Shown: positions 888 to 60,371, counted from the stretch's first letter. The stretch is DNA of 64,000 nt from GCA_000165345.1 CM000431.1:832001-896000; one strand, 5' to 3'. The notes: generated by a model from the letters alone, not told the origin. Numbers and translations are program-made.

Positions 888-1445
888 GATTACTAGGTTC
901 AATAAAACTATTTATCCGTCAATATTTGTGATAAGTTATACACAAATCCTATCATTAGTAAGCTATCTCAAAAAGTTATTAACCTGATTCTGACTTTTCA
1001 TATAAGATATTCAAATGAATTCTTTTCCACTTTGATATAAAGTCGGTTATTCTTCCTTCAAAAATCAATGTGAACAACAAATATACATATATATATATTT
1101 ATTTATATGTTTATTTAAACCAATAAAAATTTTAGAGAATTTACCTTAGATTTTTTAAAGGATGAACGATATTCAAAAAAAATTTCTCTTCCTATTTCCC
1201 CTCTAAACTCACACAAATAAATAGATTGTCTTGTGTCATGTCTCAGGCGGGAGACACCGGTACCTTAATATTAAAGAAAACAAAAAAAAAGCGATAATAT
1301 AAATTAGGGTCAAAAATTGATTTTTAGTAAATTGGTAAAGGGTTGATTCAACAATATTGAGATAGTAAGGATTTCGATATTGGTCCAAAATAAATATTTA
1401 GTTAATACTTTTTTAGATTTTCAGAAACGTATTTCTTAAGTTGAA

Positions 1446-9001: not shown

Positions 9002-10123
9002 TTTGATCTAATTCTGGATGAAGACAACTTATACACTAAACCTGTTCTTTTGTACACTTCTTGAATACTAGATTTCTTCAGTTTAATAAAAACAAGAATA
9101 TTTGTTGCCTTTGCCAATTATTCTCTTACGCAGTTGCTCTGCGACTAACTGAAGACTAATCACACCAACAGTCAACTTTCAATTCGCAACCAGATTATGC
9201 ACCCCTGATATTGCATGCATTATGCGGAGACAAGACATACTCCCGCATTACTCATTTCTATACGTACAAATGGGAGGTTAATTAGTAAACGTAACAAAAC
9301 TTGCTAATTAAGTCAATTATTTGTTCACTAACGTCTTTATTTAAATTGGAGTTTTTTTGAGAAAATTGAGTCAAAAGAAAATTTATTAATGCATATGGCG
9401 GTAAGATTTGTACTAGGAAAAAAACACACGAAAATGAATAATTTTTTAAAAAATTACTTAAAATTCTTGTATAATCAAAATGAATATTAATTAGTGAATT
9501 TATATTTATATTTTAAAGTGTTTTAGTTTAATCAGAAAATGCTTATCTGAATTCATACGTTTTAATTTCTTCCAACTAAAGATAACACCAATTAACGATT
9601 AAGTTTTAATTATATACAAAAAATTGAATAGATCTGCTAGCATATTTAAAATAAATTACCTGCTTATTAGGATTTGATTCTCAAGTGCCATTTGTGGGTT
9701 CAAGAAGAGATGGATCATTTATAGCTGCATTAATATTAACAAATATTCAGTTAGTTTTTCTTAAAATTAACGTAATTATTGAATTGCGTTGTTAGAAACC
9801 ATAGCTTGCCGCCAAATAGTGATGATTAATTAAATCTCAAATTTTAAAAGAAGGAAAAACTTAATAGCTAAGATTTCATGTTCAAAAAAGGAGAATTTAA
9901 TTAGATTCTGTAATAAATTGTGTTAATTCTAAGATGAACAAATTTTGCATATCTATATAACCATCAATTTAGAAGAAAGTAACATTTGAAATCAAACTGA
10001 TTTATTAGCCAAAATATTTTGCATCTAGTCTTTATATATATAATGAGGGGGTTAAACTAAAATGTTCAAATCAAAATTTTTGTTTTTTTTTATTTAATCA
10101 ATTTTTTAAACTTTAAATGGAGT

Positions 10124-10131
10124 TTTGGCGG
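10124..10131. promoter_or_regulatory. E2F-like TTTGGCGG (TGGCGGTAA), about 140 bp upstream of the DEAD-box helicase. The same TGGCGGTAA nonamer also occurs at 9396..9404.
   Basis: Both copies lie in the 1.27 kb divergent region 9002..10272. Confidence 0.45.
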
Positions 10132-16137: not shown

Positions 16138-16147
16138 CCCGCCAAAT
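16138..16147. promoter_or_regulatory. E2F-like CCCGCCAAAT (reverse of ATTTGGCGGG), about 85 bp upstream of the minus-strand 1238-aa gene. A second element, TGGCGCC, sits at 16326..16332 toward RPA3.
   Basis: Both lie in the 470-bp divergent promoter (16054..16524). Confidence 0.5.
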
Positions 16148-16524
16148 TGATTCATTGCTTTTTAAGCCTGCTTAAATGAGAGCCAAAGAAATAGATAATA
16201 ATAATAATTCTTCAATAGCTAATGAAATTCAGGGGAAGTTGTGAGATTTTCCAATCTATTAGTTGTTTTTTAGTATCTTTTTAGCTTTAAATGCATATAG
16301 TTTACCATAATTATTTTGGCCAGGGTGGCGCCTCCCCACAACTAGTATTTTTATTTCCGTATATAATGTATTTAACGAGTTATATAAAAGGAAAAGAAAA
16401 TCATATAAGGCATAAAGGTTAGTGTTATATTGTTAATAACACTACTATTGAAGTTTTAAAAGAATTTCACTTTAGCTAATTGTCGGGTTAACAAGTCCTT
16501 TAACGACTTTATTTAAACATCACT

Positions 16525-16929
16525 ATGCAGAGCTCAATTGAAAATGCAAGGTAAGTTTTACTATTTTCTTTGATTCTAAATAATTTTTTAACCTAACATT
16601 TGACTAATAGGAGAGTAAACAAGGAGGAACTACAAAACTTCGTCAACAAGCAGGTTAGATTTGTTGGAAAAGTAGTTTCAGTCGAAGGAGAAATAGTAAT
16701 TTTAGAGGCGCCAGATGGTGGCACTGTCAGATGTAGAACTATAAGCCCACCACCAAGCACTTATGTAGAAGTCATTGCTCAAGTTATGCCCGATCTGTCA
16801 TTAACTCAAACGGACTTCATGTTTGATTTAGGCGACTCACTAAATATGGATTTAGTTAATGAAAGTATCAAAGTTTCGTTTCATCCCAAGTTAAGACAGC
16901 ATTGGGAGCCTGTTTCTAATATTGCTTAG
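16525..16929 (+). CDS. RPA3: Replication protein A 14 kDa subunit (RPA3). Two exons, 16525..16550 and 16611..16929, with a 60-nt GTAAGT...TAG intron at 16551..16610.
   Basis: The exon 2 ORF (the track calls it from a TTG) aligns by eye to human RPA3: R[IV]N..L..F[IV].K.V.FVG[RK], [FV]IL...DG[GE], FDLG...N...K. Upstream ATGCAGAGCTCAATTGAAAATGCAAG | GTAAGTTTTA...CTAATAG | G gives an in-frame phase-2 splice. Spliced product is 114 aa. Confidence 0.75.
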
Positions 16930-17017: not shown

Positions 17018-17206
17018 TTACTCTTCATTTCTATGCTGTCTTGCTAACTTTCAAAGACTGTGCATTCCCGCTAACTGTCATTCCAATCCCGGTTTCTACA
17101 GAAACTTCCAAAATCAAATTGAGAGTTTGTGATTTAAAAGACTATTTAGGTGCAAAATTTATGTAATACTTGTTTGGAAGAAAATTTATTTCAGATCTTT
17201 TTCAGT

Positions 17207-29480: not shown

Positions 29481-29520
29481 GGATTTTTGCATGCAAATTG
29501 CAAACTGCATGCAAAAATCC
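29481..29520. promoter_or_regulatory. 40-nt hairpin-capable palindrome with two TGCATGCA (ApiAP2-type GCATGC) cores: GGATTTTTGCATGCA-AATTGCAAAC-TGCATGCAAAAATCC.
   Basis: Perfect 15-bp inverted arms around a 10-bp near-palindromic spacer. About 430 bp upstream of the MAM/amine-oxidase gene and 210 bp downstream of the mtHSP70 stop. Confidence 0.55.
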
Positions 29521-29730: not shown

Positions 29731-31782
29731 TTAAGAATCTGAATCTTGAGACTCACAGGAATTATCCTCATGATTAGCATAGTTTTCACTAGATTGATTA
29801 TCTGAATTACCTGGTTTATATGCCTTCTGAGTGATTGCCCAAGAGGCCTGTTTAAGCTCTTCCAGTTGTGATTTAATACTCTGAATAGCGGATTCATAGT
29901 CTGAAGACTGGGTAGATTCTTGTAAAATAGATTGTAATTTAGAAATCTTGGATTCCAAGCTATCTTTTTCTTGGGTATTGATTTGGTCAGCTAGAGAAGA
30001 AATTTGATTTTGTACAGAGTAGATAAAGGCTTCTGCATCATTCTTGAGATCAATAAGCTCTTTTTTAGCTTGATCATTTGCTCTGTATTCTTCAGCTTCT
30101 CTGATCATTTTCTCAATTTCAGCACCACTTAGACCTCCAGAAGATTGAATAGTGATCTCGTGTTTCTTTCCAGTTGACTTATCAATTGCACCAACATTCA
30201 TAATTCCATTTGCATCAATATCAAAGGTGACTTCAATTTGAGGTACCCCTCTGGGTGCTGGAGGAATTCCCATCATTTCAAATTGTCCAAGCAACTTATT
30301 ATCAGCAGCAAATTCTCTTTCTCCTTGGAAAACTTTAATTCCAACTTGAGTTTGATTGTCTGCAGCAGTGGAGAATACTTGGCTCTTTTTAGTAGGTATT
30401 GTGGTATTTCTGTTAATTAATCGAGTAAAAACTCCACCCAAAGTTTCAATACCTAAAGATAAGGGTGTAACGTCGAGTAACAAAAGATCCTTGATCTCCC
30501 CTTTCAAAACACCAGCTTGTATAGCAGCTCCCATTGCAACAGCTTCGTCAGGGTTAACTCCTTTTGATGGCTCTCTTCCAAAGATCTTTTTAACTGTTTC
30601 AGAAACTTTAGGCATTCTAGTCATTCCTCCGACTAAAATAACGTCATTAATCTTTTCCTTAGGGATACCAGAGTCACGAATACATTTCTCACTAGGAGAA
30701 ATAGTCTTTTTCAATAAATCGTCAACAAGTTCTTCATATTTGGCTCTACTTAGTTTGATTTGTAGATGTTTAGGACCTCTTGCATCAGCAGTAATGAAAG
30801 GAAGATTAATTTCAACTTGAGTCTTACTACTCAGCTCTTTTTTTGCAGTTTCTGAGGCTTCCCTTAACCTCTGTAATGCAAGCTTATCACGACTTAAATC
30901 TATTCCTTGCGTTTTCTTGAATTCCTGAATTAAATAATTCAAAATTCGTTGATCAAAGTCTTCTCCTCCTAGGGAAGTGTTACCATTAGTTGCTTTAACT
31001 TCAAACACTCCGCCAAGAATCTCTAAAATAGAAATATCGAAAGTACCTCCTCCCAAATCATAAACTGCGATTGTTTTGCCATCTGCTTTTTCCATTCCGT
31101 ATGCAAGAGCCGCTGCTGTTGGCTCATTAATGATTCTTGTTACATTTAAGCCTGCTATAGAGCCAGCATCCTTAGTTGCTTGACGCTGAGAATCATTAAA
31201 GTAAGCTGGCACAGTAATAACAGCATGCTTTACACCTCTACCAAGATAAGTTTCGGCAGTTTCTTTCATTTTTTCCAAAATAAATGCTCCAATTTGACTT
31301 GGACTATATCTTTCACCTCTAGCTTCAACCCAAGCATCCCCATTATCAGCCCTGACAATCTTATATGGTAAAATTCCCTGTTCCTTCTTGATTGCTTCTT
31401 CTTCGTACCTTCTTCCAATTAGCCTCTTTGTTGCGTAAACAGTGTTTTCTGGGTTTGTGATTGCTTGTCTTTTTGCAACTTCACCAACCAATCTCTGCCC
31501 ATCTTCAGAAAAAGCCACAACAGATGGAGTTGTTCGCATTCCTTCAGAATTTTCTAATACTTTGGGTTGAGTACCTTCTAATATGGCAGTACAAGAATTT
31601 GTAGTTCCTAAATCAATTCCTATAATGTCACCAGTAATTCTCCTATTTGAAGACTTTTTGCCTTCACATTTTGAGCTCATATACCTTGAAAACACTAACG
31701 GAAGGCTCCTTTTAAGTATTCTAGCTGCAATACCAGACGAATTCACCACCCCATTAAAGCTACTATTAATTATCATAGACAT
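29731..31782 (-). CDS. mtHSP70: Mitochondrial-type (DnaK-class) HSP70 with an N-terminal organellar presequence (683 aa).
   Basis: [36 protein letters not shown] and IDANGIM.V are DnaK/mtHSP70-class signatures (GIDLGTTNS rather than cytosolic ...TYS). About 50 aa of basic/Ser-rich N-terminus precede the ATPase domain. Confidence 0.95.
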
Positions 31783-31955: not shown

Positions 31956-31964
31956 TTGGCGCCA
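31956..31964. promoter_or_regulatory. E2F-like TTGGCGCCA, 175 bp upstream of the mtHSP70 start.
   Basis: GC-rich island in AT-rich intergenic sequence. Confidence 0.45.
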
Positions 31965-32442: not shown

Positions 32443-33057
32443 ATGAAAAGGTATTACAAGAATGAAAGTTCAGGTTTGAGTAGCGTGTTGTCCATTCCAA
32501 GAACAAATACAGATTTTGAAGTTGAGACAGCTGCTACCAAGAGAGAAAGTAGAGAGTTTCCAAGTTTACCGAGTACTAGTATTGAGATAGATAGTGATGA
32601 ATACTGCAATATTTCAAGCGCATCTTTGGATTCAGTATGTATCAAGGATTTATCTAGATTGGAATCAAATTCTTTAATAAAAAAGGGAGACAGATTAAAG
32701 TACAAAACTGTTTGGATGGGTCCAGGAGGAGGTTATTCACTAATGGAGGAGTACACAGAACCAAGAAAATGTATGGAGAGGGAAGTTCCTAAAGAATCTG
32801 AGATGGAACTTAAAAGATATAGACAGCCTGGATCTTGTAAGAATAGTAAAAGTATGAACAACTTAGCAAGTAACTCAAGCGTTCAGGTTATTGAAGAAGC
32901 TGGTATTTTAAAGGAAGATAGCTACATATTCAAGTCTTCAAGATCTCTAGCAAATGTTGATTGGAATAAGCAGGAATTTGTTGGACCACTTCCTTTTCAA
33001 AATAAAGTAGCCATAGGAAACAGAAGTTGTTTGGGTAGAAACTTGATCCCATTATAA
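32443..33057 (+). CDS. Hypothetical Ser-rich protein, 204 aa, no recognisable domain.
   Basis: ATG-initiated ORF in an otherwise empty 1.3 kb interval. GCATGCA element about 290 bp upstream. Low-complexity composition, so coding status is uncertain. Confidence 0.4.
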   Translation: MKRYYKNESSGLSSVLSIPRTNTDFEVETAATKRESREFPSLPSTSIEIDSDEYCNISSASLDSVCIKDLSRLESNSLIKKGDRLKYKTVWMGPGGGYSLMEEYTEPRKCMEREVPKESEMELKRYRQPGSCKNSKSMNNLASNSSVQVIEEAGILKEDSYIFKSSRSLANVDWNKQEFVGPLPFQNKVAIGNRSCLGRNLIPL

Positions 33058-33132: not shown

Positions 33133-34887
33133 TTATACAGACCTCTTTTTAAGGCTTGGATGCTTACTATATGAGTGAGCAGAGTTACTACTGCTATTAT
33201 TACTATTATGGTGATTATTAATTGGATTTACTCCATTATTGTTAATTATGTTATTTTGAGTATTATAATTATAGTCCTTTCTTTTCTTGAATAGCTTGCT
33301 CTTCTTTTCATTTGAATTTCCAAAATCTTGTGTTTCTTGGAGAAGAGATGAGCGGATAGATTTTGGAAGCAACCCCCAAATATCTTTAACACTTTGTTGG
33401 GCCTGCTTAATAAGCTCAAAATTTTCTTTTGATAACATTGGAAACGACATTGCAAGTTGAATTTGTTGTTCTTCTGTCAAGTAAGGACCGCAAATCGGTA
33501 AAATTGGCTCAACAAATGGTTGGAAATGTGCATGAGCACCGTATATACCAGGATTTATCATATTTGGAGGCTGAATTACATATCCATATGGATGGGTAGG
33601 TCCTGTCTGTGGGAAAGGAGCTCCAGGGTATCCAGGATGGAAATGGTGTGATGCACCATCTGGAGCATATGCTGGATAGGGATGTCCTTGCATGTTCCAA
33701 GGATCCATAAAAGGGGGTGGTGCATGAATACCAGGGTGTGGCGGCAGCTGGTGAGTAGCTATAAGGGGAGGAGCATGGTGTGGGGGTAATACAGGAGCAG
33801 GCAAACCAGAGTATGAAGGAGCAGCAGCTTTTGCTTTTGGAATTATAGGAATTGAAGTTTCAATACTTTGCTCATTCAAATTAGTAATATTAGGTGGAGA
33901 GAGTTGCTTCAATTCTGCGTTTAAGTTTGTAGCTATAGCAGAAGAAGTTGCGTTTAGACTCTCGTCTGTTGTATTTTGAACATTTATTGAAGCCAAATTT
34001 CCTTCATTCCTATAAGTTGAGTCAACATTAGGAGCTTGCGGTATTGCAAGTTTGTGCTCAGAGCTCTCATTAGTATTATTTTCGACAACACATAAGTCTT
34101 TTTGCAAACTTTCTCCCACTGGAACAGAACTAGAGTCTTGATTTAAATTTTGTGCTAAAGTATTAACTTCCATACTTATCTTGACTTCATCCAATTCAGG
34201 ATCAGTTTTTGCTACGGAAACAGAATCATGTGTTAATGCTTCTCCAGAAATACTAGTGTCCTGGTTTTTGAGCAAATGATCTGAATCCTTAGAAACATCA
34301 GCTTCAGAATTTCTAACAGGGTAGTTAAACTTATCCCAGTCTATGGTCGATAACATATTAGCAAGACTCTTATTAGGTACACTACCTCTGAATCTTTGTC
34401 CACAGGAAGGACAAGGCTTAACGGCCACAGCTTTATTTTGCTCAAGATAATTCTTTACACAGTCCCTGCATGCAGATGCTCCACAGCTTCCAGCACATTT
34501 TATAAGTACTGGATTTAGTAGAGGAAATCCACATAATTTACAGATATATTCTGAAGGCAAGGTCAGTTTTGTTTCTTCTACAACTTCTGTCTCCTCACCT
34601 TCTGCAATACTCCTCTGAGCATCATGGTGTATCTCTTTAAGCTCCCTCCAAGGTATACGCTGTATTACTACTCTGGAGTAAATTGGCAATAACTTATCGT
34701 CAGGAAAAGCTTCTTTTTCATCGTTGTCAAATACCTTTAGATCAAAGAGTTTCATATATTCCTTACCCAAACCTGCATGCTCAGCAACGAGCATCTTCAA
34801 GTCTGAAGTTCTGACTGAAGTTACATTTAGCTCAATAGCACGATATGAATCCGATTTTTCATGTAAAAAGCGATAATATACCGACAT
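33133..34887 (-). CDS. RBBP6/Mpe1-like protein: N-terminal DWNN ubiquitin-like domain plus a Cys-rich RING/U-box-like module, with a Pro/His-rich tail.
   Basis: N-terminus MSVYYRF..SDSYRAIELNVTSVRTSDLK...PIYSRVVIQRIPW is a DWNN-type start. It is followed by CKLCGFPLLNPVLIKCAGSCGASACRDCV...CPSCG (eight Cys). C-terminal half is PHP-rich low complexity. Confidence 0.75.
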   Translation of the reverse strand: MSVYYRFLHEKSDSYRAIELNVTSVRTSDLKMLVAEHAGLGKEYMKLFDLKVFDNDEKEAFPDDKLLPIYSRVVIQRIPWRELKEIHHDAQRSIAEGEETEVVEETKLTLPSEYICKLCGFPLLNPVLIKCAGSCGASACRDCVKNYLEQNKAVAVKPCPSCGQRFRGSVPNKSLANMLSTIDWDKFNYPVRNSEADVSKDSDHLLKNQDTSISGEALTHDSVSVAKTDPELDEVKISMEVNTLAQNLNQDSSSVPVGESLQKDLCVVENNTNESSEHKLAIPQAPNVDSTYRNEGNLASINVQNTTDESLNATSSAIATNLNAELKQLSPPNITNLNEQSIETSIPIIPKAKAAAPSYSGLPAPVLPPHHAPPLIATHQLPPHPGIHAPPPFMDPWNMQGHPYPAYAPDGASHHFHPGYPGAPFPQTGPTHPYGYVIQPPNMINPGIYGAHAHFQPFVEPILPICGPYLTEEQQIQLAMSFPMLSKENFELIKQAQQSVKDIWGLLPKSIRSSLLQETQDFGNSNEKKSKLFKKRKDYNYNTQNNIINNNGVNPINNHHNSNNSSSNSAHSYSKHPSLKKRSV

Positions 34888-35442
34888 TTTATTTACACTA
34901 GTCTATTTTGCTCAACTAAAGTCAAATTTTCTCTCTCTTCGTCCTTCAATCCAAACACATTCAGTAATTCCTTTTTAATCTTTTGTCTCAATCTCTCATT
35001 TAACCTATCTTTTTTTTTTCGTATTATCTTCCGTTCCTATTAAAGCTTTTGAATTAAAAAAATAATATTTACTCTAATTTGGACTTAGCGCGTAATCAAT
35101 TATGCATAAAAGTGATGAGGCATGAAGAATTATTCTGAAGTAAATCCTTTCTTGCTTTTCTTATTTTTAGAAAATCCAACAAGTCACTTTACTGTTAAAA
35201 TGTGAACTTTAGTAAAACCAAGCCACTCTTCTTCTATCCAAATCTTATTTTTCTTATTCTTTATACTCACTATATTATTCACAAGATAACTTCATAGCTG
35301 TCTTTGCAATATAAAATAATTAAAGGCTTCAATCCTCCAATCAAAATATACAGGCAAAAATATTTATTTTTATCTCAAATACTTTTCTAATTATTAAGCT
35401 ATTTTTCCAATTCATTTCCTCCATGCATAGCCTTTTATTTTG

Positions 35443-35454
35443 TTTGGCGCCAAA
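35443..35454. promoter_or_regulatory. E2F/DP-like palindrome TTTGGCGCCAAA, 165 bp upstream of PCNA.
   Basis: Perfect 12-bp palindrome, strongly GC-rich within AT-rich intergenic DNA. The identical 12-mer recurs at 48547..48558. Confidence 0.7.
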
Positions 35455-35618
35455 TCAGTTAAACTTATTCTACAGGTAAAAAAAGGTAATAAGGCCCCAC
35501 AATTGGGGGAATAAAGAGCAATACAATAAAATATATAATAAAATTAAAACTAGAATTAATATAGTAATATTATAGTAATAAAGTTAACGAGGATATCTTG
35601 GCTTTAATTTGAAAAGAG

Positions 35619-36404
35619 ATGTTTGAAGCTAGATTACAGAATGCCATGCTATTTAAAAAGATAGCAGAAGCTCTTAAAGAGCTTTGCCATGATATTAACA
35701 TAGATTGTGATAGCGATGGGCTACATCTTCAAGCCATGGACTCTTCTCATGTTGCTTTAGTATCATTGAATATCCAACCAGATGCATTTGAACATTATAG
35801 ATGTGATAGACCAGTAGTTCTTGGTTTGGATATGCAACAACTCTCTAAATTTATGAAATTCTGCGATAAAGATACTAGTATGACTCTTAAAAAATATGAT
35901 GATAATGAAGATAATAGAATTACTATGTGTTTTGAAGATAATAGTGGAATTCTCTCGTCAAAAGAATGTACTTTAAGGCTAATGGATATTGAACAAGAAC
36001 ATATTTCAATCCCGGAAGAGGAATACGAATGTAATGTTACAATGCCTTCAAATTTATTTCAGTCAATTGTTAGAGATATGTCAGGTATTGGAGATGAAGT
36101 TAGTCTTGAAATTAGTGGAAAGAATATCAAATTTTGCGTGGATGGTGATGATGGAAAAATTGATCTTAATTTTCCTCTTAATGATAGCCCTGATATAACT
36201 AAAGCAGTACAAATTCATGCTGATGATACAATTTCCCAAAAATATGCCCTTAGATACCTCTCATACTTTACAAAAGCATCTCCTTTAAGCACTACTGTCA
36301 ATATTAGTATTTCAAAAGGAGTACCACTTAGATTACAATTTCCACTTAATGACAAATATGAACATGGAAACATGCAATTTTACCTTGCTCCTAAACTAAG
36401 ATGA
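35619..36404 (+). CDS. PCNA: Proliferating cell nuclear antigen (261 aa).
   Basis: MFEARL..A..FKKI.EA.KEL....N.DC...G...QAMDSSHVALVSL...F..Y.CDR...LG..M...SK, then LAPK at the C-terminus: full-length PCNA pattern. Perfect palindrome TTTGGCGCCAAA (E2F-like) 165 bp upstream. Confidence 0.95.
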   Translation: MFEARLQNAMLFKKIAEALKELCHDINIDCDSDGLHLQAMDSSHVALVSLNIQPDAFEHYRCDRPVVLGLDMQQLSKFMKFCDKDTSMTLKKYDDNEDNRITMCFEDNSGILSSKECTLRLMDIEQEHISIPEEEYECNVTMPSNLFQSIVRDMSGIGDEVSLEISGKNIKFCVDGDDGKIDLNFPLNDSPDITKAVQIHADDTISQKYALRYLSYFTKASPLSTTVNISISKGVPLRLQFPLNDKYEHGNMQFYLAPKLR

Positions 36405-39400
36405 AGAATAATCATTTATCATTGGTAAAATTTGTTCTTCTGAAGGCAAAGATAAAATTAAAGATGATGGTGATAAAGGTAATGGTGATGGCGATGGTGA
36501 TGATAAGGAAGAAGATTTAATTGTGTCTTTCTCCTTTCTTGCAAATTCAATTAGAATATCTCTAGATAATATTCGTAGATTTTGATCTTCCAATAGAGTT
36601 ATATCCAATAATACCTTATAAAAACGAGAACTTTTCATTATATATTCAGATTGTTTCATTTCTTTAAGATCACTTAATAAACTATTCAAAACTGCTTTAT
36701 ATGAATAGGTAATATCTACTTTATTCTTGAGAATACGATCATAGCTTGAATTAAAATGATGGTTAAAATGTATATTTGGACTAATTATACTACTTAATCT
36801 CTTCTTTTCATAATAATCATCAGAATGAAGACCTTTTTCTCTTCTTTCCAATGTATTATTTTTGCTTTTCTCAATCTTTACATATTTCTCCAATATATCT
36901 TCACATTGAGAAAGTAATTCATTCTTATAGTATTGTAAATTATCTTTAAATTGTAGTGAAAATTCCTTTCTAACATGTAATTGAATCCATAATACCAAAT
37001 AAATATTATATTGAAACAGATCAAACTTAACTAAATTTAATCCATTTAATAATTCAAAATATAATTTATTTAATGAATTTATTATTGTATCATAAATCAT
37101 TTTATTAATCCCCATATCCAGCTCTCTTTCTATTGATCTCAAATCTATCATATACCAATCAAATAATATGTTATATATTACTAATAAAGCAGAATATAAA
37201 TCATGAACACAATCTGGTCTATTAATTGTAATCATTGTCTTTTCTTCATCATAATTTGATTTATACTTTATATCTTTAAATATTAGCTCTTCTATACTTA
37301 ATCTTAATCTTATAAAAGAATCATACATTTCTTGATCATTAGTATTCTTAATGTTTTTATGAGAATAGCATTTCCAATTCTTTTCTAAACAATGTTTTAA
37401 TGAAATTCTTCTTCCTTTATTTTTATATTTACCAATCTTATTCGGATCTATCCCATTTTGGTCATTTTTATGATTCTTCTTATTTTCTATTAACCCAAAA
37501 TATCTCTTATTGAAAAATTTTGATCTAAAAAATATCTCAAATTGATTATGTTGTCTTCTTTTACGAGTATCAACTATCTCATCATCTTTTGATTTCTTCT
37601 TCTCATTGATCTGATTTTCAAATTCTCTTTCACCATAAGCAACACCCAAATCATCAATAGAATATCTACTTCTTACATCTTCTATTATATATTTATTAGG
37701 ATCAATTTGTATAGATTTTGTAAATTCTCCCACAAAATTTGAATAATATTGAAAAATTTGATGCCATTCTTTGTATCCAAATAAACTCTTATTATTATAT
37801 AAAAAATTTATATAAACTATCAACATCTTATATTGAATCTTTATATCATCTTTGCAAAATATACTCATTGTTTGAGATAATAAAATTTGATTTGTTAAAA
37901 TTAACCAATCTTTTAAAAGAAATCTATAATATTTAATACTTGTTCTAAATATATAAAATTCAATAATTTTATATACATTATGTATTATCTTTATAGCTTT
38001 TAAATCTCCATACTCTTTATCTATTTTAATATTATTGATATCATCATAATTTAAATTCTCTAAAATTTCATCAGAAATTAAATGATCTTTATCTTCTGTC
38101 TTATTTGTTAAAACTCTATTAATTTCTTTAAATTTTTTATTAAATATTGTCAAGTTATTTTTATAATTTGTTTTCATCTTAAGATCTTCTTTGCTACTTA
38201 AAGTTAATTGTGTATTATCCAAATGAGAATTCTTATTTGTAACTTCAAATGTACTTTTTTCATTTCTTGTTGAATTATAGCTTATATAACGTATTATATC
38301 CAAATCTGCCTCATCATTAACAAAACAATTATCTTCATCATCATCATCATCATCGTTCTCAAAATCATTTTCATCATGATATTCCTCAGTTCCTGAATCA
38401 TCTTCTAAACGATTATTCTTGATCATTGATTCTTCTTCAAGTAATAATGATGTCTCATGATTTTTTTCTTCAGTTGTTAATTTATCCAAAAATTTTACTC
38501 CTTTTGTTTTCATATAATCTGCTGTTAAACTTATATTTGTTTGATTTATAATATTCTTTTTATTATTAAAAGAAATTAAGTTTATAATATCAGGAATAAT
38601 ATTCTGAATTAAAAATACTTCATGGATTATTAACTCAATAGGACAAATTCCTAACCAATAATTAATTAATTTTGAAATATTTACTAAATAATAATAATAT
38701 AAATCCAAATACTTCTTTTCAAAAATTAGACTCTTTGTAATAAGTTGAGAGAATTCATTAAAGTAGCACAAAATTAATTTATATTGATTCTTATTATATA
38801 CATTTTTTCTTATGTTATTAGTCTTTCTAATATTTAATAATTGTAAACCATTTATATTATCTTCATCTAAATTCTGTATTTCTTCAATATCTTGATTATT
38901 AATATACTTAATTTTGATATAAAACATATATAATATGTAATCTAAGATCTTACAAATTAATTTACTTACATTTTTTTGAACAAAGACTTTAATTAGTATA
39001 AAAAAAGTATCCAGTAATTTGGAAAATATATCATCATCCAAAATAAATGATAATCTTGGTATAGTTGTCAAACATAATAAAATTCTGGCTAAAATCTCAT
39101 TCTCCTTATCTTTGTTTAACTCTTCTTTATTTGAGTGTGAGTTTGAATTCAATATATTGATTAGTTTCTTCTTCTTACTGTTATGATGATTATTAATATT
39201 TTTTTCTTCAGTTTTTTCTATTCCTTTTTGGATTCCTATAATAAAACAATAGTAAATCTCAATAATATCATTTACATCTAAAAAGTTTAAAAGCTTCAAA
39301 TTTTGATATAAATTTTGTATATTCTTTAAGATTTCAAGTAAAAGTTCAACTGTAACAATGTACTCATTATATGATTCATAGTTAATAATTTTCTCAACCA

Positions 39401-42400
39401 ACTTTTTAAAAAGAATAAATATGGATAATTGAGTCAAATTTAACTCTTTTGAATGGAAATACTTAAAATTTGTACTTAATTGATTGCTTGATTTTTCCAA
39501 AATAAAATCTAATGATGAGGAAATAATAATCATTTTAATTTCTTCAGGATAATTATTAACCTTATTTTCATCCTTAATATTATTCAAATATTTTGATCTT
39601 ATAAACATATCTTGGGATTCAATAAATTTGATAGTAAAACTCTTTATTGAATCCAAAACTTCTAAGTATGCTTTTCCACTCAAAATCTGAATTATCTCAG
39701 AGTAATATATTGGAATAAAATACTTATCCCAAAGAATTAATTCAAAAAATTCTTGAAAATTATATTCAAGAATTAAATTCATAAATTCAAAAACTTTTCG
39801 GAATAGAAATAACTCAATAGATTTTCTTCCTGATAATACAATTTGGTTTCTAGCATTAAATATTAATGCTAAAAATAAGTCTGTAATCACTCTCTTATTT
39901 TTTATCGGATCCATTGCAATTCTTGTGAATATTCTTTCCATTACTTGGTAAAATTCTAATTCGTTTGTGATTAATTTAGAGTTAAACATTTCTGTTCTTC
40001 TTAAGTTAATTAACGATACTTGATTCAGAATTAAAGAATATTTTTCGTCATTTATTATAAGCATCTCGCCATTGTTTTCAACGGTTGAATTTTGTTCGAT
40101 AATTTCTTCATCTTTAAACCATAAATTATTAAAAGAAATGGAATTTTTTAGATTGGTATATATTTGAATATTTTGACTATTTGAGCCATATATTATTTTG
40201 TTTTGGAAATATGTATTCGAACTAATGATCTCATTTTCATCTTTGGATTGAATTATTTCAGTATCCTTATTAGAATAGTCTGGAGAAGTTTCTCTAGAAC
40301 TTGAAGCTCTAGAAATACTTCTGGAATTATCTCGTGAATTATTATTAGAAAGTCCAGAATTAATAATACTTTTGGTAGAATTAAAGATATTTTTTGTAGA
40401 CTTGATTAATTTTCTATTGAAAAATTGATTAAAATGACGGCTATTCAAAGTATTTGACTTGGTTAAGTTTAAAGAAATTTTACTCAAAGTTAGAAATTTG
40501 GTCAAATCATTACCAAAAGCCTTACTTTTATTATTAATGAATTTATTATGATCAAAATAATCAGAAATATCTGTATTATTGCCTTTTAGTATGGTTTTAA
40601 CATAAAAGTATCTGTCAACTTGAGATACAATTCCAATCATGATTACCCATAAAATAAAAGGTACTTGATCTCCATAATCTTGGCTAATTTCAAAAATAGC
40701 TTTGATTGCTTCAATATTTAAATAATTAAGACTAGAATGTGTTGAAAAAGATTCATTAGAGATCAAATAACTCAAAAGTACCTCGGATTCTTGATTTGTA
40801 GAGTGAGCAAATGAATGAGATATAGACTTTTCATTTTCATCTTTTACTTTACATTCTTGTTTAGATTCAAAGCTATTGTAGAAATTCATACTAGTCTGAA
40901 AGCTTCTAATAATTAAATCTGAGTATTGTTCAAGTATACCACTTTTCTCTAATTCTGGAAATTTTAATGATTTTGAGTATTTTTCATCCTCAAAGCTGTG
41001 ATGATCATTTTTTAAAATAACCCTAATTTCCTCAGTTATATTAGAATTACAAAAGAATAAATCATTAAGATTGAGAGGTAATGTTAATGTATTAGTCAAA
41101 TAAGATAAAACTGTTAAATTGATCGTAAAAGACGATTCTAATCCAAGTATTATTCCTAGTTCTGTTGAATATTTTAGAATGGGTATCCAACTTATCATAG
41201 TTTCTTTTCCAAAACACATCCAAAAATCAACATTTGATAGCATTGTAGTAAAATAGCAACATATCATTTTTCCCAATAATATTATGTAGCTTTCTTCTAT
41301 TTCAATACGTTTTTGATTCATGGATTCAGTTCTTTTATATTTTCTGTTACTCCAATTTGGATGCATTTCTTTAATTAAATCAGAAATAGTAATTTGAAAA
41401 ATACTATTAATATCTCTAACTTTAATATCACTATTCTTATTATTTGTAATCCATTTTGATAAATTTTGGTTATTTCCAATTACACTGGAAGTTTGAAGAA
41501 TATTATTGCTATGGACTACTTTTGTATTTTTATTAAAACTTAATCCATCATATTGGAAATAAATACTTTCTTGTTGTATCTCACTTTTAATTGGTAGGTT
41601 TCTGCCTTTTAAACACTCACTCAAGCCAATAATCCATTGAATAGGAGTATTTGGAATAAATTTCCAGTAAACAATATCCTCTGAATAGATACCATTGAAG
41701 TAGATGGTTTCGAATTTCTTTTTAATTGATTGATATATAAACTTGAAAAGATCTTTTTGATTGGCAATGATTTCTGGATCAGTCTGAAAGCTGAGTAGAT
41801 TAGCGATCTTGTGAATTATTTCATTACTAATTATTTTAATTTGGAAATTGGAACTATAAGAAGAACTTGAATTGTAATAACAAGCATTTTTGCTATTATT
41901 AGTTAAACAAGTATTGGTAAATTCCAGATTTTGAATTAAATTAATAAGGTAATCAATATAAGGAAAGTAAACTTTGCATCTTTCCTTTGAATTTTCAAAA
42001 ATCCATTCATTCAAAGTAATATTATCATAAAATGCCTCAAGAGAGTCAACAAGTTTTGGAGATGATAATATTAAATCATTATGATTTTTGATAAAATCAC
42101 TTTTTGACATTCTATAATAATTTTTGATTTCTTTACTATGAGCATCAGTATGAAGCATGATTAGAGAGAAAGCAATGATGTAAATCTTGTCTTTATTTGG
42201 AAAGATTTCAGGATTATCCAAGAAATATCTGAGGGAAAATTCTTCAATAATTCTGTCTATTTTCTGGGCTTCTCCAGGAAGATGAAAGTTGGAAAGAAAC
42301 AAATATAAAGAGAAATCCAAGCTTTTATTTTTGAATGAAAACTGATTACAATAATGATTTAGTATTTCTTTGTTTCTTGGATTTGGAAGAGAAATATAGT

Positions 42401-44132: not shown

Positions 44133-44907
44133 ATCATAATTTACAAATCTTAATTTTCATACCAAATTTCATTAAAAAAAATACGAATTTGTGTATTAAT
44201 GCCTATATATCCTTCCGGTCTATATGATTAGTTTATTCTTTCATTCCTATTATTTAAGTTTGGTGATTTCTTTCAAATTTACAGTTTTTCACACATCCGT
44301 TGAAAATTCCTCAATTTTTTACTTTAACGCATATTAATTATTTGATGATCTTGCCGCCTTTTTTTAAATATTGAATTAATTAACTGAATAAATATAATAA
44401 AATCCTCAATATAAAATTTTCTAAAATGGTGAATAATATTCAGACAAACAAATAAATTTTTACTGTTTATAAAGTTTTTATAGTCTAAACTTAGACTCTA
44501 TTGTTCTTTAACAGAAATGTTAATTCCTAATATTAACTGCTTGTAAGATTATTACTAACTTTAAGTAACAATCACTTATATTACAATTGTATTTTTCATG
44601 TATGATTTAAATTAGATGATCTTTTATTTGATTATGCCTTGCTCGTTCTTTCAGTATTTGAAAGGCATAATCTTTATTTTGCCCTTTGTTTTTTCTCACT
44701 TTATGATTCAATTTGACACGTAATACTCAATGTGGATACATGCAGGTAAAAATCGCATGCAATACTAATAACAGAATTTTAAATAGTTGAAAGTTAAATT
44801 CTGTATTTGATAAATAAATATTAATTGGTTCAATTTATGAGTAAAAAAATTTTAGTAAAAATAATAAACCAATTACTAAGACTAGTAAATTTTACAAATA
44901 AAAAAAG

Positions 44908-47136: not shown

Positions 47137-47161
47137 AATTTGGCGGGCACATGTGCCGCCA
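47137..47161. promoter_or_regulatory. E2F-like TTTGGCGGG embedded in a 21-nt near-palindrome TGGCGGGCACATGTGCCGCCA (CACATGTG core).
   Basis: Divergent promoter between the 711-aa gene (-) and the RRM gene (+). Arms TGGCGG/CCGCCA are perfect inverted repeats. Confidence 0.5.
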
Positions 47162-47362
47162 TGGGCTGGGCGGTACCATGTTCTAGTTATTTTTGACTTT
47201 TAACTTGAAATAATAAAATAATTTTTAAGTTTCAAAGGTAACTAAAATTGGAAATTCAGTTAAAAAGTAAACAGGTTTTTAACAATAAGACTTTGATTTA
47301 TTTATTTATACTTTCGAATATTATATTAGCCTAAATGAATTATAATTTTATATTTTAAGAAT

Positions 47363-48412
47363 ATGGAAAAGGCTGAAAAAGTTACTTCTATTACGGATAT
47401 AATTGCCAGAAATAGTAGATCCAAAGGAGCTACTGAGGAAATTAACCCAAATATTGAAAAACTGCTTAGTGAATGTAGTGATAATCCCCGCATTTTAGCT
47501 CCTAAAAATCAGGAAAAGAATAGATCTGAAAATGTAGCAAAAGAGGAAAAACCTAAAGAATTTACTAAGGTTAAATATGATAAAAACAATGATCCAAGGA
47601 TTGAAAACACACTATTTGTTGGAAATGTAGCTCTACATATTTCTGAGAAAGAACTACTTTCCAAATTAGAAATTAAACAAGGTGAAGTAGAATCCATGAG
47701 ATTTAGGTCCCTACCTATACATCCTAAGTTTGCTTCAAAGAAAAAAGTTGGTGCAGCTTTGGAGTGCTTTTCTGGAAACAGTAGTACTAAAAATGCTTAT
47801 ATTGTTTTGAAAGAAAAAGAAAGGATGAAACCAATTATTGACAAATTTTCTGGAATTGTTTTAGCAGGAAATATTCTTCGTTTAACTCCAGCATCTAAAG
47901 GCAATCAATTCAGCACTTTTGATCGTAAGAGAACTGTCTTTATTGGTGGATTACCAAAGTTTTGTACTGAAGATGAACTACGTAGATTTGTTACAATGTC
48001 ACTAAATGAAGACTGCGTTCATTCCGTTCGGATTATAAAATCTGCCACTACTGGTAAGCCTAAAGGTTTTGGATTTGTTTTATTTAATGACAGAAAGTTT
48101 GTCATCTCTTCCGTTAAAATGCTTAGTGGCGCTCAATTTAAAGATTCCAAAATATCAGTTACTAGGGCTTTATCTGAAGAAGAAGCAAAAAGTAAAGCTA
48201 ATTCAAACAATTCTAGAAGAAGGATGATCAATAATGGAACACAAAGTAAAAATAAAGAAGGCGATGACTCTATGAGAGAAAATAGATTTATATCCAAGAA
48301 GAATGCTAAAAATAAGGTCAATAAAATTAAGAAGAAACTTAAGAAAGTTGTCAAAAAGGCCCCAAATATTAAAAAAGCTTCCAAATCTAAAAAAAGTAAA
48401 TCAAAAGCATGA
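47363..48412 (+). CDS. RRM-containing RNA-binding protein with a Lys-rich C-terminal tail (Nop12/RBM34-like nucleolar protein).
   Basis: RNP-type RRMs: LFVGNV...EVESMRF and TVFIGGLP...KGFGFVLF (RNP-1). C-terminus KKNAKNKVNKIKKKLKKVVKKAPNIKKASKSKKSKSKA. Confidence 0.8.
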   Translation: MEKAEKVTSITDIIARNSRSKGATEEINPNIEKLLSECSDNPRILAPKNQEKNRSENVAKEEKPKEFTKVKYDKNNDPRIENTLFVGNVALHISEKELLSKLEIKQGEVESMRFRSLPIHPKFASKKKVGAALECFSGNSSTKNAYIVLKEKERMKPIIDKFSGIVLAGNILRLTPASKGNQFSTFDRKRTVFIGGLPKFCTEDELRRFVTMSLNEDCVHSVRIIKSATTGKPKGFGFVLFNDRKFVISSVKMLSGAQFKDSKISVTRALSEEEAKSKANSNNSRRRMINNGTQSKNKEGDDSMRENRFISKKNAKNKVNKIKKKLKKVVKKAPNIKKASKSKKSKSKA

Positions 48413-48546: not shown

Positions 48547-48558
48547 TTTGGCGCCAAA
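48547..48558. promoter_or_regulatory. E2F/DP-like palindrome TTTGGCGCCAAA, upstream of ORF 48672.
   Basis: Identical 12-mer to the PCNA-upstream site. Confidence 0.6.
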
Positions 48559-48671
48559 TCAAATGTAGTAGTTTACATGCAAAACGAAACGTAATTAATT
48601 ACTAAGTGAAGTTCTTTTTTTTTTTAAATAAAATTAGTTGAAGATATAAATAATAATACAATAGAGTAAAT

Positions 48672-49037
48672 ATGGCAGAGTTAATACTTAATAGAATAAG
48701 TGAAGCCTTAGGGTTTGGAACAAAGTGTTGTTCAAAGTGCATTTTTGAAGGAGAAAAGGAGACATTACAATGTTATGACTTGGATCCTCCTCAGATTGTC
48801 AATGAAATTTCAAAAATTAATAACAAGAACACTGTAATAGGACTTGATTGTAATCAAAAGGAGCATGAGGAAGATTTAGCTCGAGATGCAGCAAGAAAGG
48901 TCTTTGGAACAGATTTAGAAAACTCTCCAACAGTGAAAAGGGAAGAGAGAATTATTCAAGAGGAGAGCAGTGTGCCAAAATTAGATTTATTAAAAGAGGA
49001 AAATCAGAGAACAATAAAATTTGAAGATTGTAACTAG
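48672..49037 (+). CDS. Small hypothetical protein (121 aa), Cys-containing N-terminus.
   Basis: ATG ORF. Perfect TTTGGCGCCAAA element 115 bp upstream (48547..48558) suggests a genuine promoter. No domain recognised. Confidence 0.4.
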   Translation: MAELILNRISEALGFGTKCCSKCIFEGEKETLQCYDLDPPQIVNEISKINNKNTVIGLDCNQKEHEEDLARDAARKVFGTDLENSPTVKREERIIQEESSVPKLDLLKEENQRTIKFEDCN

Positions 49038-52664: not shown

Positions 52665-52724
52665 TTGGCGCCCTCTGAAATAACTTGAGGCCACCATTTG
52701 GCGCCTAAAGGGTAACCGCCATTT
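52665..52724. promoter_or_regulatory. Cluster of three E2F-like GGCGCC/GGCGG elements within 60 bp: TTGGCGCC at 52665, TTTGGCGCC at 52697, CCGCCATTT at 52716.
   Basis: Lies in the divergent region between the cation exchanger gene (-) and the zf-C2HC5 gene (+). Confidence 0.55.
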
Positions 52725-53696: not shown

Positions 53697-54402
53697 TACA
53701 TTATTATAGGGAAAACAATGATAAATATAGATATTGAAAACAAGCAGATTACAATGGATGAAGGTTATAATACAAGGAATGCCTTGCATTATGCAAAATT
53801 ATTAGAAGAATTTGAACATAGAAGAGAAAAAAAGACTGATATAAGTACTGGAAAAACTGAAACAAATGTCGAGAATGTATTAAGTATGTTGGGACAAAGA
53901 CTAAGATTTGAAGAAGAATCCAAAATTGAGGGTAGCTTTAAATTACCTAATAAAGATACTATAATAAATGAGTTTTTGCCTTTATCAGTGAATGATCCAG
54001 TTTGGTCAGATCAGGATGATTAAGAATATGAGAGAAGAGTACCGAATAAATATTTGATAAATTCTGAATTATGCACTAAAAATAGGCAAAAACAAATAAT
54101 GGTGATTTAGAATTGGATTTGTAAGTTGGTGTGGCATTTTGGTGTGGAATTTTTGAAAAAAAAAATTACTAAGTTTTTTTTTTCTTTTTCTCCCAGAATT
54201 CAAGGAAAGGGAAATGGATTTTTCTTTCAAATTTAAGAAACATTACTCTTGGAAATAAAAATTGCTTGAAATAATAAGATATTCAAATTTTGAGATTTTT
54301 ATTTATATTCAACAATCTGAGTTGAATTTGACAAGTATTTATTTCATTAACTATTAAGAAGTGAATAAGATAAAGTAAAATTATAGGAATATTTGAAGAG
54401 TA

Positions 54403-60349: not shown

Positions 60350-60371
60350 GGCGCCAAAAATGGGCGCCAAA
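60350..60371. promoter_or_regulatory. Tandem pair of E2F-like elements, GGCGCCAAA and GGGCGCCAAA, 4 bp apart.
   Basis: Lies in the divergent promoter between the CorA/MRS2 gene (-) and the SAC3/GANP gene (+). Confidence 0.55.

What the first reader, a model, noticed from the sequence alone, without database searches (positions are those of the whole stretch)
35443..35454. Recurrent GGCGCC (E2F/DP-like) palindromes mark nearly every promoter; an identical TTTGGCGCCAAA 12-mer sits upstream of PCNA and a small unknown gene
GC-rich GGCGCC or GGCGG cores flanked by T/A runs occur in almost every 5' intergenic interval of the window. The sites are 10124, 16138, 16326, 31956, 35443, 47137, 48547, three clustered at 52665..52724, and a tandem pair at 60350..60371. 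A GGCGCC palindrome of this kind has been reported as an over-represented upstream motif in Cryptosporidium, enriched before DNA-replication genes, and PCNA, RPA3 and a DEAD-box helicase all carry one here. The perfect 12-bp palindrome TTTGGCGCCAAA appears twice verbatim, which links the uncharacterised 121-aa gene at 48672 to the PCNA-type cell-cycle regulon.
Basis: partly seen in the sequence, partly recalled or inferred. Interest (0 to 1): 0.5.

Follow-up and report, generated by a model that had tools for sequence, protein, structure and literature searches.

The report
Known Cryptosporidium E2F-like promoter motif
The GGCGCC palindromes are real, promoter-specific and conserved across Cryptosporidium species, but they are the already-published E2F-like motif found upstream of most C. 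parvum genes, so two identical copies do not tie the small unknown gene to a PCNA cell-cycle regulon.

Summary
The window is Cryptosporidium parvum chromosome 3 (about cgd3_3370 to cgd3_3570). TTTGGCGCCAAA occurs exactly twice (35443, 48547). GGCGCC occurs 10 times against 0.46 expected, and 8 times against 0.08 expected in 5'-containing spacers alone. E2F-like sites occupy 8 of 8 divergent spacers, 3 of 6 tandem spacers and 1 of 7 convergent spacers, with only 6 in 52.9 kb of coding sequence. Cross-species footprinting shows purifying selection: TTGGCGCCAA upstream of the 121-aa gene is invariant in five species, and the PCNA site persists in six species, replaced by GGCGGGAA in C. muris. Absence is conserved as well.

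The motif is already known (Bankier 2003 as credited by later papers, Mullapudi 2007, Oberstaller 2013, Xiao 2025). It is the most over-represented upstream motif in C. parvum, lies upstream of 161 of 200 expression clusters, and dominates ATAC-seq peaks.

The regulon inference fails. Half of the half-sites carry the TTT flank, so about 2 perfect 12-mers are expected among 8 sites, and 2 are seen. The 12-mer identity is not co-maintained in other species. Carriers here include HSP70, CorA, a Sec7 protein and ribosome-biogenesis genes, and three of them fall in three different published clusters. The 121-aa protein stays uncharacterised. This is an ordinary instance of a known feature.

The parts
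35443..35454 (.). Perfect palindromic E2F-like site TTTGGCGCCAAA in the divergent DWNN|PCNA spacer, about 171 bp upstream of the PCNA ATG and 561 bp from the DWNN ATG
   Evidence: The GGCGCC core is conserved in C. tyzzeri, ubiquitum, canis, felis and bovis. C. muris has GGCGGGAA 84 bp upstream instead.
48547..48558 (.). Perfect palindromic E2F-like site TTTGGCGCCAAA in the tandem Nop12>unk121 spacer, about 120 bp upstream of the unk121 ATG and 140 bp past the Nop12 stop
   Evidence: TTGGCGCCAA (48548-48557) is invariant in 5 species while the spacer averages 64% column identity. Permutation P = 1e-5 for an invariant run of 10 or more.
35619..36404 (+). PCNA gene (cgd3_3470 by my numbering inference)
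   Evidence: Pfam PCNA_N and PCNA_C; source names
48672..49037 (+). 121-aa Cryptosporidium-restricted protein of unknown function (source locus tags CPHLJ_3g3510 / CHM_3g3510; cgd3_3510 by inference)
   Evidence: Orthologues only in Cryptosporidium at 64-95% identity. No Pfam hit and no PDB hit. AF2 mean pLDDT 46.
16526..16929 (+). RPA3 gene with a short 5' intron (about 16552-16611). GGCGCC at 16707 lies in its coding exon.
   Evidence: Pfam PF08661, E = 3.9e-16; sequence read
16327..16332 (.). GGCGCC without T/A flanks, followed directly by a CCCCAC G-box, 197 bp upstream of RPA3 and 276 bp upstream of the RPAP1-like gene
16138..16145 (-). CCCGCCAA (TTGGCGGG on the minus strand), 88 bp upstream of the RPAP1-like gene
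1246..1251 (+).
9806..9815 (.).
10125..10131 (+). TTGGCGG, 145 bp upstream of the Dbp9 DEAD-box helicase
17065..17071 (+).
31956..31963 (.). TTGGCGCC in the divergent HSP70|unk204 spacer, 177 bp upstream of HSP70
   Evidence: TTGGCGCC is conserved in C. ubiquitum, canis and felis.
44351..44357 (+).
   Evidence: atgatcTTGCCGC is invariant in 5 species at 222-225 bp from the ATG.
47140..47173 (.). Cluster in the divergent unk711|Nop12 spacer: TTGGCGGG (47140) plus GGCGG cores at 47156 (minus strand) and 47169
   Evidence: Clusters at the same position in C. ubiquitum, canis and felis; only 1-mismatch and GGCGG variants in C. meleagridis.
52665..52720 (.). Cluster in the divergent Na/Ca-exchanger|C2HC5-ZnF spacer: TTGGCGCC (52665), TTGGCGCC (52698), CCGCC (52716)
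   Evidence: At least one site in the orthologous spacer in 4 other species.
60350..60370 (.). Tandem pair GGCGCCAA / GGCGCCAA, 13 bp apart, in the divergent CorA|SAC3-GANP spacer
   Evidence: This 881-bp spacer matches the 882-bp cgd3_3570 upstream region in Mullapudi 2007, Table 1.
35495..35509 (.). CCCCACAATTGGGGG, a G-box-like palindrome 41 bp downstream of the PCNA E2F site (accessory element)
   Evidence: Conserved in C. tyzzeri, ubiquitum and canis; CCCCAC half retained in felis, bovis and muris.
48575..48593 (+). Two further invariant blocks in the unk121 promoter: ACATGCA (48575-48581, AP2_1-like) and ACGTA (48589-48593)
   Evidence: invariant columns A163-A169 and A177-A181

Best explanation
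These are instances of the published E2F-like cis-element of Cryptosporidium, with a [C/G]GCGC[G/C] or GGCGGG core and T-run/A-run flanks giving the consensus TTTGGCGCCAAA.

The most likely mechanism is that the parasite's E2F/DP winged-helix heterodimers bind these sites. Two E2F and two DP genes are encoded elsewhere in the genome. The sites lie in the nucleosome-free core of compact promoters, many of them bidirectional, about 85-560 bp upstream of start codons.

Because GGCGCC with T/A flanks is a palindrome, a single site presents the same face to both divergent genes. The element behaves as a near-general promoter element rather than a marker of a replication or cell-cycle regulon. Stage specificity presumably comes from accompanying elements (TGCATGCA/AP2, the G-box CCCCAC, ACGTA) and from which trans-factors are available.

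What is shown here: the sites exist, are about 100-fold enriched, are restricted to 5' regions, and are conserved in position across the genus.

What comes from the literature: the motif's genome-wide prevalence, its co-location with ATAC-seq peaks, and the presence of E2F/DP genes.

What is inferred: that E2F/DP is the binding factor, and that binding activates transcription.
For: Organism: exact protein matches to C. parvum chromosome 3.

Enrichment: GGCGCC 10 against 0.46 expected. In 5' spacers, 8 against 0.08 expected; the union of E2F-like patterns gives 27 matches against 1.3 expected.

Location: density is 1.19/kb in divergent spacers against 0.04/kb in CDS and 0 in convergent spacers. 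Sites occupy 8 of 8 divergent, 3 of 6 tandem and 1 of 7 convergent spacers.

Conservation:
- TTGGCGCCAA is invariant in 5 species upstream of unk121, in a spacer with 64% column identity (permutation P = 1e-5).
- The PCNA site is conserved in 6 species and replaced by the classical E2F form GGCGGGAA in C. muris.
- The Sec7 site is invariant at 222-225 bp, and the HSP70 site is conserved.
- Absence is conserved in the unk1115 promoter and in convergent spacers, even in C. canis where those spacers are 36-42% GC.

Literature:
- E2F 5'-TGGCGCCA-3' is the most over-represented upstream motif (PMC3734150).
- It lies upstream of 161 of 200 clusters, and it is listed among motifs not bound by the AP2 domains tested on protein-binding microarrays (PMC4117751).
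- It is the most prominent motif in sporozoite ATAC-seq peaks, more than half of which are bidirectional promoters, and it is found in 160 of 201 internal spacers of polycistrons (bioRxiv 10.1101/2025.01.17.633476).
- Two E2F and two DP genes are tabulated in the 2025 review (PMC12246861).
Against: In the library I searched, no direct binding data (ChIP, CUT&RUN, EMSA) exist for Cryptosporidium E2F/DP at these or any other sites. The 2025 review states that most regulatory components lack functional validation (PMC12246861; one search found nothing newer).

Some sites deviate from the canonical form: 16327 has no T/A flanks, and 52716 and 47156 are bare GGCGG cores. Three promoters here work without any site.

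For divergent spacers I cannot tell which of the two genes, or both, a site serves.
Confidence: 0.8

Rival explanations
1. One reading: the verbatim 12-mer marks a specific PCNA-type replication/cell-cycle regulon, and the 121-aa gene is a co-regulated member of it.
For: Both promoters carry the identical 12-mer, in fact a shared 15-mer TTTGGCGCCAAATCA. Both also have a CATGCA within about 25 bp. In other eukaryotes E2F classically drives PCNA and RPA genes (established knowledge). E2F-like motifs were reported upstream of C. parvum replication genes (PMC3734150, citing Mullapudi 2007).
Against: - About 2 perfect 12-mers are expected among the 8 intergenic GGCGCC sites from the half-site flank frequency alone.
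- The identity is not co-maintained in C. meleagridis, ubiquitum, felis or bovis.
- 19 of 22 genes in the window have an E2F-like site in their upstream spacer, including many with no link to replication.
- The motif lies upstream of 161 of 200 clusters (PMC4117751).
- Dbp9, Nop12 and cgd3_3570 fall in three different clusters.
- The accessory conserved blocks differ: a G-box palindrome at PCNA, ACATGCA plus ACGTA at unk121.
- unk121 has no detectable similarity to any replication factor.
Confidence: 0.07
2. The motif is a functional promoter element, but a factor other than E2F/DP binds it. Alternatively it acts mainly through DNA structure, as a GC island in AT-rich DNA that excludes nucleosomes or positions the transcription start.
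For: No direct E2F/DP binding data exist (PMC12246861). C. parvum lacks pRb and most E2F partners (PMC3734150). The motif is near-universal, unlike the restricted E2F targets of animals. The 16327 site lacks the T-run typical of E2F sites.
Against: The consensus, with TTT flanks in 8 of 16 half-sites against a 6.7% background, matches the E2F/DP site TTTSSCGC described structurally (Zheng et al. 1999, as cited in PMC3734150). In C. muris the PCNA site is replaced by GGCGGGAA, the other classical E2F form, rather than by just any GC-rich sequence. Base-by-base invariance of 10 bp argues for sequence-specific recognition rather than a mere composition effect. Cryptosporidium is the only apicomplexan genus with E2F/DP and also the only one reported with this motif dominant (PMC12246861).
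Confidence: 0.15
3. Chance or compositional artefact: GC-rich hexamers scattered in AT-rich spacers with no function.
For: None beyond the small absolute counts.
Against: 8 observed against 0.08 expected in spacer-only dinucleotide shuffles, with 0 of 500 shuffles reaching the observed count. The sites are conserved in position across species whose spacers are otherwise diverged.
Confidence: 0.01

Closest known systems
Cryptosporidium parvum 'E2F' upstream motif family (Oberstaller et al. 2013 motifs 3 and 4; consensus 5'-TGGCGCCA-3', [C/G]GCGC[G/C], GGCGGG)
   Same: Same organism and same sequence. It has the same restriction to upstream regions, the same high prevalence, and the same association with bidirectional promoters and internal spacers of same-strand gene pairs (PMC3734150, PMC4117751, bioRxiv 10.1101/2025.01.17.633476). 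One spacer in this window (cgd3_3570 upstream) was part of the 2007 input set (PMC1779779).
   Different: Nothing substantive. The per-site footprint across seven species produced here is an additional layer of evidence, not a different phenomenon.
Canonical eukaryotic E2F/DP binding site (TTTSSCGC; animals and plants) at S-phase genes such as PCNA and RPA
   Same: A CG core with a T-run flank, a palindromic core bound symmetrically by an E2F/DP heterodimer, and presence upstream of PCNA and RPA3.
   Different: In Cryptosporidium the motif is near-general (19 of 22 genes here, 161 of 200 clusters genome-wide) rather than limited to cell-cycle genes. pRb and most E2F cofactors are absent (PMC3734150). 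The fully palindromic GGCGCC form with flanks on both sides predominates.
ApiAP2 motifs of C. parvum promoters (AP2_1 TGCATGCA; G-box G[T/C]GGGG)
   Same: They co-occur in the same promoters and are likewise conserved: CATGCA at 35422 and 48576, and CCCCAC at 16334, 35495 and 60297.
   Different: They have different sequences and different trans-factors. The protein-binding-microarray study lists the E2F motif among those recognised by non-AP2 proteins, not among AP2-bound motifs (PMC4117751).

Membership tests
C. parvum E2F-like upstream motif family (Oberstaller 2013) | Sequence matches [A/T][C/G]GCGC[G/C][A/T], TGGCGCCA or GGCGGG | tested here: met
   TGGCGCCA is exact at 35445, 48549 and 31957-type sites. 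There are 10 GGCGCC and 3 GGCGGG in the window.
C. parvum E2F-like upstream motif family (Oberstaller 2013) | Organism is Cryptosporidium | tested here: met
   Nine of the ten window proteins looked up have exact sequence matches in the collection, all named as Cryptosporidium and mostly C. parvum Iowa II / IOWA-ATCC / BGF chromosome 3.
C. parvum E2F-like upstream motif family (Oberstaller 2013) | Over-represented in upstream (5') non-coding regions relative to background | tested here: met
   8 against 0.08 expected in 5' spacers. The density is about 30 times that of CDS, and GGCGCC is absent from convergent spacers.
Functional E2F/DP binding site | T-run / A-run flanks on a CG core (TTTSSCGC) | tested here: met
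   8 of 16 half-sites have TTT against a 6.7% background. There are 9 TTTSSCGC matches, 8 of them intergenic. Not every site complies; 16327 does not.
Functional E2F/DP binding site | Evolutionary conservation of the site (purifying selection) | tested here: met
Functional E2F/DP binding site | Physical occupancy by an E2F/DP heterodimer | not testable with these tools
   This needs ChIP, CUT&RUN or EMSA. None was found in the searched literature.
Functional E2F/DP binding site | E2F and DP genes present in the genome | not tested
   They are not in this window. Taken from the literature: cgd1_1560, cgd6_1430, cgd7_3650 and cgd8_1850 (PMC12246861).
   19 of 22 genes carry an E2F-like site in their upstream spacer, including HSP70, CorA, Na/Ca exchanger, Sec7, Nop12 and Dbp9. 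Genome-wide it lies upstream of 161 of 200 clusters (PMC4117751).
   Dbp9, Nop12 and cgd3_3570 are in clusters 43, 72 and 19. PCNA and unk121 themselves were not in the readable part of the truncated supplement, and no paper mentions them by ID.
   2.0 perfect 12-mers expected, 2 observed. The identity is not co-maintained across species.

The most novel reading that the evidence does not exclude
The palindromic GGCGCC element is a genus-wide core element of bidirectional promoters, fixed in position. A single orientation-free E2F/DP site, at a conserved distance from the ATG (for example 112-122 bp for unk121, 222-225 bp for Sec7, 171-177 bp for PCNA in four species), would nucleate the open-chromatin region for both flanking genes. 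That would make E2F/DP a general 'promoter-licensing' factor in Cryptosporidium rather than a cell-cycle regulator. The site-by-site footprint out to C. bovis and C. muris has, as far as I found, not been published, but the idea itself is already suggested by Oberstaller 2013 and Xiao 2025.
Probability: 0.45. Interest if true: 0.4.

Novelty: already known. Interest (0 to 1): 0.15.

Why it matters
Cryptosporidium is the only apicomplexan genus reported to retain E2F/DP, and this motif appears to dominate its promoter architecture, so the motif is a real handle on gene regulation in an important diarrhoeal pathogen. That point has been in the literature since 2003-2013 and was reinforced by ATAC-seq in 2025. 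This window adds a clean local illustration: 8 of 8 divergent promoters carry the motif, and both presence and absence are conserved across species. It also gives a caution that an identical consensus site is not evidence of a shared regulon. The missing piece in the field is experimental proof that E2F/DP binds these sites.

Tried and rejected
1. Characterising the 121-aa protein led nowhere. There was no Pfam hit even at E <= 0.1, homologues occur only in Cryptosporidium, and a profile search of the PDB found nothing at E <= 10. The AlphaFold2 model had mean pLDDT 46 and pTM 0.20, so I did not run a fold search on an unreliable model.

2. Looking up co-expression of PCNA and unk121 failed. 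The Oberstaller supplement is truncated as stored and lacks cgd3_3470 and cgd3_3510. No paper in the library mentions those IDs. The supplements of Xiao et al. are not held, so I could not check whether Nop12-unk121 is a listed polycistron.

3. Bankier 2003 (PMC403770) is not held. Its priority is taken from how Oberstaller 2013 and the 2025 review cite it.

4. I considered whether CCCCAC (the G-box) is a replication-specific partner element, because it adjoins the E2F sites of both RPA3 and PCNA. I rejected it as specific. It also occurs in the CorA|SAC3 and EF-hand spacers, and it is not enriched overall (8 against 5.7 expected).

5. I looked for a hidden RNA gene that might explain the E2F-like site at 3483 in the long convergent spacer. 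Rfam and tRNA scans of the whole window found nothing, and there is no open reading frame of 70 aa or more there.

Full report
**What the window is.** The sequence is about 30% GC and is packed with long, mostly intron-free ORFs. Nine of the ten window proteins I looked up have exact-sequence matches in public records, named as Cryptosporidium and mostly C. parvum Iowa II, IOWA-ATCC (CP044420) or BGF (CP141120), on a chromosome of about 1.10 Mb. Source locus tags (CPHLJ_3g3390, 3g3490, 3g3510, 3g3530) and gene IDs in the Oberstaller and Mullapudi tables (cgd3_3380 = Dbp9p, cgd3_3500 = Nop12p, cgd3_3570) place it on chromosome 3, at about cgd3_3370 to cgd3_3570.

**Gene map.** I curated 22 genes:
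- <1-887 (-), unknown, partial
- 1446-3101 (+), diphthamide-synthesis-like
- 4478-9001 (-), unknown
- 10273-12258 (+), Dbp9 DEAD-box RNA helicase
- 12337-16053 (-), RPAP1-like
- 16526-16929 (+), RPA3, with a short intron (PF08661, E = 3.9e-16)
- 17207-21817 (+), unknown
- 21978-23174 (-), EF-hand protein
- 23744-29053 (-), Cu-amine oxidase/MAM
- 29731-31782 (-), HSP70
- 32443-33057 (+), unknown, 204 aa
- 33133-34887 (-), DWNN
- 35619-36404 (+), PCNA
- 36396-44132 (-), Sec7-domain protein
- 44908-47043 (-), unknown, 711 aa
- 47363-48412 (+), Nop12
- 48672-49037 (+), unknown, 121 aa
- 49241-52060 (-), Na/Ca exchanger
- 53038-54023 (+), C2HC5 zinc finger, with introns
- 54403-57750 (+), secreted low-complexity protein
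- 58115-59932 (-), CorA/MRS2
- 60814->64000 (+), SAC3/GANP ('MCM3-associated')

**The observation.** TTTGGCGCCAAA occurs exactly twice, at 35443 and 48547, and in none of 100 shuffles. GGCGCC occurs 10 times against 0.46 expected, and GGCGG 15 times against 6.7.

Eight of the ten GGCGCC lie in 5'-containing spacers. The other two are coding: 16707 in RPA3 and 53149 in the zinc-finger gene's first exon. When only the 8.8 kb of 5'-containing spacers is shuffled, preserving its own dinucleotide content, the expectation is 0.08 and no shuffle out of 500 exceeds 1. The Fisher test against CDS gives p = 5.9e-6.

I used a broader E2F-like definition (GGCGCC, TTSSCGS or its complement, GGCGGG). It gives 22 sites:
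- 13 in the eight divergent (5'-5') spacers, all eight of which are occupied
- 3 in three of the six tandem spacers
- 1 in one of the seven convergent spacers
- 6 in 52.9 kb of coding sequence

So 19 of 22 genes have a site in their upstream spacer, and 'nearly every promoter' is fair. The exceptions are the EF-hand gene, the Cu-amine oxidase/MAM gene (whose spacer instead holds two TGCATGCA palindromes) and the 1115-aa secreted protein.

**Is it functional?** I fetched the syntenic loci from C. meleagridis, C. ubiquitum, C. canis and C. felis for the unk121 neighbourhood. For the PCNA neighbourhood I used C. tyzzeri (locus L006, already returned) and fetched C. ubiquitum, C. bovis, C. felis, C. 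canis and C. muris. Gene order is fully conserved among the intestinal-clade species; the C. muris locus differs on both sides of the unk204-DWNN-PCNA core.
- In the Nop12>unk121 spacer, mean column identity is 64%, yet TTGGCGCCAA is invariant in all five species and lies 112-122 bp from the ATG. A run of 10 invariant columns has a permutation probability of about 1e-5. Two further invariant blocks follow, ACATGCA and ACGTA.
- Upstream of PCNA, the GGCGCC core is kept in six species, at 171-177 bp from the ATG in four of them. In C. muris, the most divergent species, there is instead a GGCGGGAA 84 bp upstream, which is the other classical E2F form.
- The Sec7 site (atgatcTTGCCGC) is invariant at 222-225 bp in five species.
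- The HSP70|unk204 TTGGCGCC is kept in four species.
- Absence is conserved too. The unk1115 promoter and the two convergent spacers I compared have no site in any species, including C. canis, where these spacers are 36-42% GC.

These are selected, sequence-specific elements with constrained positions.

**What it is.** This is the E2F-like motif already described for C. parvum.
- Oberstaller et al. 2013 report E2F (5'-TGGCGCCA-3'; cores [C/G]GCGC[G/C] and GGCGGG) as the most over-represented upstream motif. They note it was seen earlier on chromosome 6 by Bankier et al. 2003, and upstream of replication and glycolysis genes by Mullapudi et al. 2007 (PMC3734150).
- Oberstaller et al. 2014 state it lies upstream of 161 of 200 co-expression clusters, and they list it among motifs recognised by non-AP2 proteins rather than among those their tested AP2 domains bind (PMC4117751).
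- Xiao et al. [quoted passage not shown] They also find it in 160 of 201 internal spacers of polycistronic transcripts.
- The 2025 review tabulates the motif and the four E2F/DP genes, and stresses that binding has not been validated experimentally (PMC12246861).
- The CorA|SAC3 spacer of this very window (881 bp here) matches the 882-bp cgd3_3570 upstream region in Mullapudi's replication gene set (PMC1779779).

**Mechanism.** My inference is that E2F/DP heterodimers bind the CG core, with the T-run contributing on the E2F side, as in the structure cited by Oberstaller. A core flanked by TTT on one side and AAA on the other is symmetric and can therefore serve both genes of a divergent pair. 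Seven of the eight intergenic GGCGCC are in divergent spacers.

The eighth, at 48547, sits between two same-strand genes 259 bp apart. That is the arrangement described for internal promoters or internal spacers of dicistrons. Whether Nop12-unk121 is a listed dicistron could not be checked.

**The regulon claim.** It does not hold up.
- The motif is nearly universal here and genome-wide.
- Among the eight intergenic GGCGCC cores, 8 of 16 half-sites carry the TTT flank (background 6.7%). That gives an expectation of 2.0 perfect 12-mers, and two are seen.
- Across species the invariant part is TTGGCGCCA, while the outer flank bases drift independently in the two promoters. Both are perfect only in the C. 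parvum lineage and in C. canis.
- The accompanying conserved blocks differ between the two promoters.
- Three other carriers from this window fall in three different published expression clusters.
- The DEAD-box helicase cited as a replication gene is named Dbp9 by its sources, a ribosome-biogenesis factor.
- The 121-aa protein is a Cryptosporidium-restricted, cysteine-containing small protein with a strongly conserved core. It has no detectable family or solved relative and no confident predicted fold.

**Verdict.** The feature is already known, so the interest is low. The residual value is the site-by-site footprint across seven species and the conserved ATG distances. Both support the published idea that E2F/DP sites form the core of most Cryptosporidium promoters.

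Noticed in passing
window 35085-35092: TTAGCGCG lies about 200 bp upstream of the DWNN ATG. It sits at the position where C. ubiquitum, C. canis and C. felis have a second E2F-like site, TTGGCGCG, 184-197 bp from the DWNN ATG. C. parvum seems to carry a G>A-decayed copy, which leaves one perfect site for the whole divergent DWNN|PCNA spacer.
   Followed up: partly
window 35495-35509; also 16334-16339 and 60297-60302: A G-box-like palindrome CCCCACAATTGGGGG lies 41 bp downstream of the PCNA E2F site and is conserved in C. tyzzeri, ubiquitum and canis. CCCCAC also directly abuts the RPA3 GGCGCC (GGCGCCtCCCCAC) and the C. muris PCNA site (CCCCACGGCGGGAA). Five of the 8 CCCCAC in the window are intergenic, but there is no overall enrichment (8 against 5.7 expected). 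This could be an E2F + G-box composite at some promoters.
   Followed up: partly
window 48575-48581 and 48589-48593: Two further blocks in the unk121 promoter, ACATGCA (AP2_1-like) and ACGTA, are invariant in five species, just downstream of the E2F site. ACGTA does not correspond to any of the motif families I saw named in the papers read.
   Followed up: no
window 3102-4477 (site at 3483-3493): This 'convergent' spacer is unusually long (1376 bp, against 0-364 bp for the others). It contains an E2F-like TTGCCGCCGCC and a CCCCAC (4028), but no open frame of 70 aa or more, no Rfam family and no tRNA. It may hold an unannotated lncRNA or a small or spliced gene with its own promoter.
   Followed up: partly
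window 29488-29513: Two TGCATGCA palindromes lie 18 bp apart in the spacer upstream of the Cu-amine-oxidase/MAM gene, one of only three promoters without any E2F-like site. That is consistent with AP2-driven, stage-specific control of this gene.
   Followed up: no
window 36396-36404: The PCNA ORF (+ strand) and the Sec7-domain ORF (- strand) overlap by 9 bp at their 3' ends, so this convergent spacer has zero length. In C. ubiquitum, canis, felis and bovis the annotated ends are 47-136 bp apart.
   Followed up: no
window 35619-36404 and loci L016, L018, L019: PCNA gene models disagree between assemblies. They are 261 aa in C. parvum Iowa II, C. hominis, C. bovis and C. muris, but 213, 228 or 175 aa with introns or alternative structures in some C. 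parvum, C. canis, C. ubiquitum and C. felis annotations. Yet the uninterrupted MFEARLQNAMLFKK start is present in every locus. The shorter models are probably annotation artefacts.
   Followed up: partly
window 53038-54023: The C2HC5 zinc-finger (TRIP4/ASC-1-like) gene is split across at least three open frames (53038-53253, 53331-53693, 53718-54023). Source annotations vary between one 274-aa spliced model and separate 71-, 101-, 182- and 192-aa fragments. The GGCGCC at 53149 is inside its first coding exon.
   Followed up: partly
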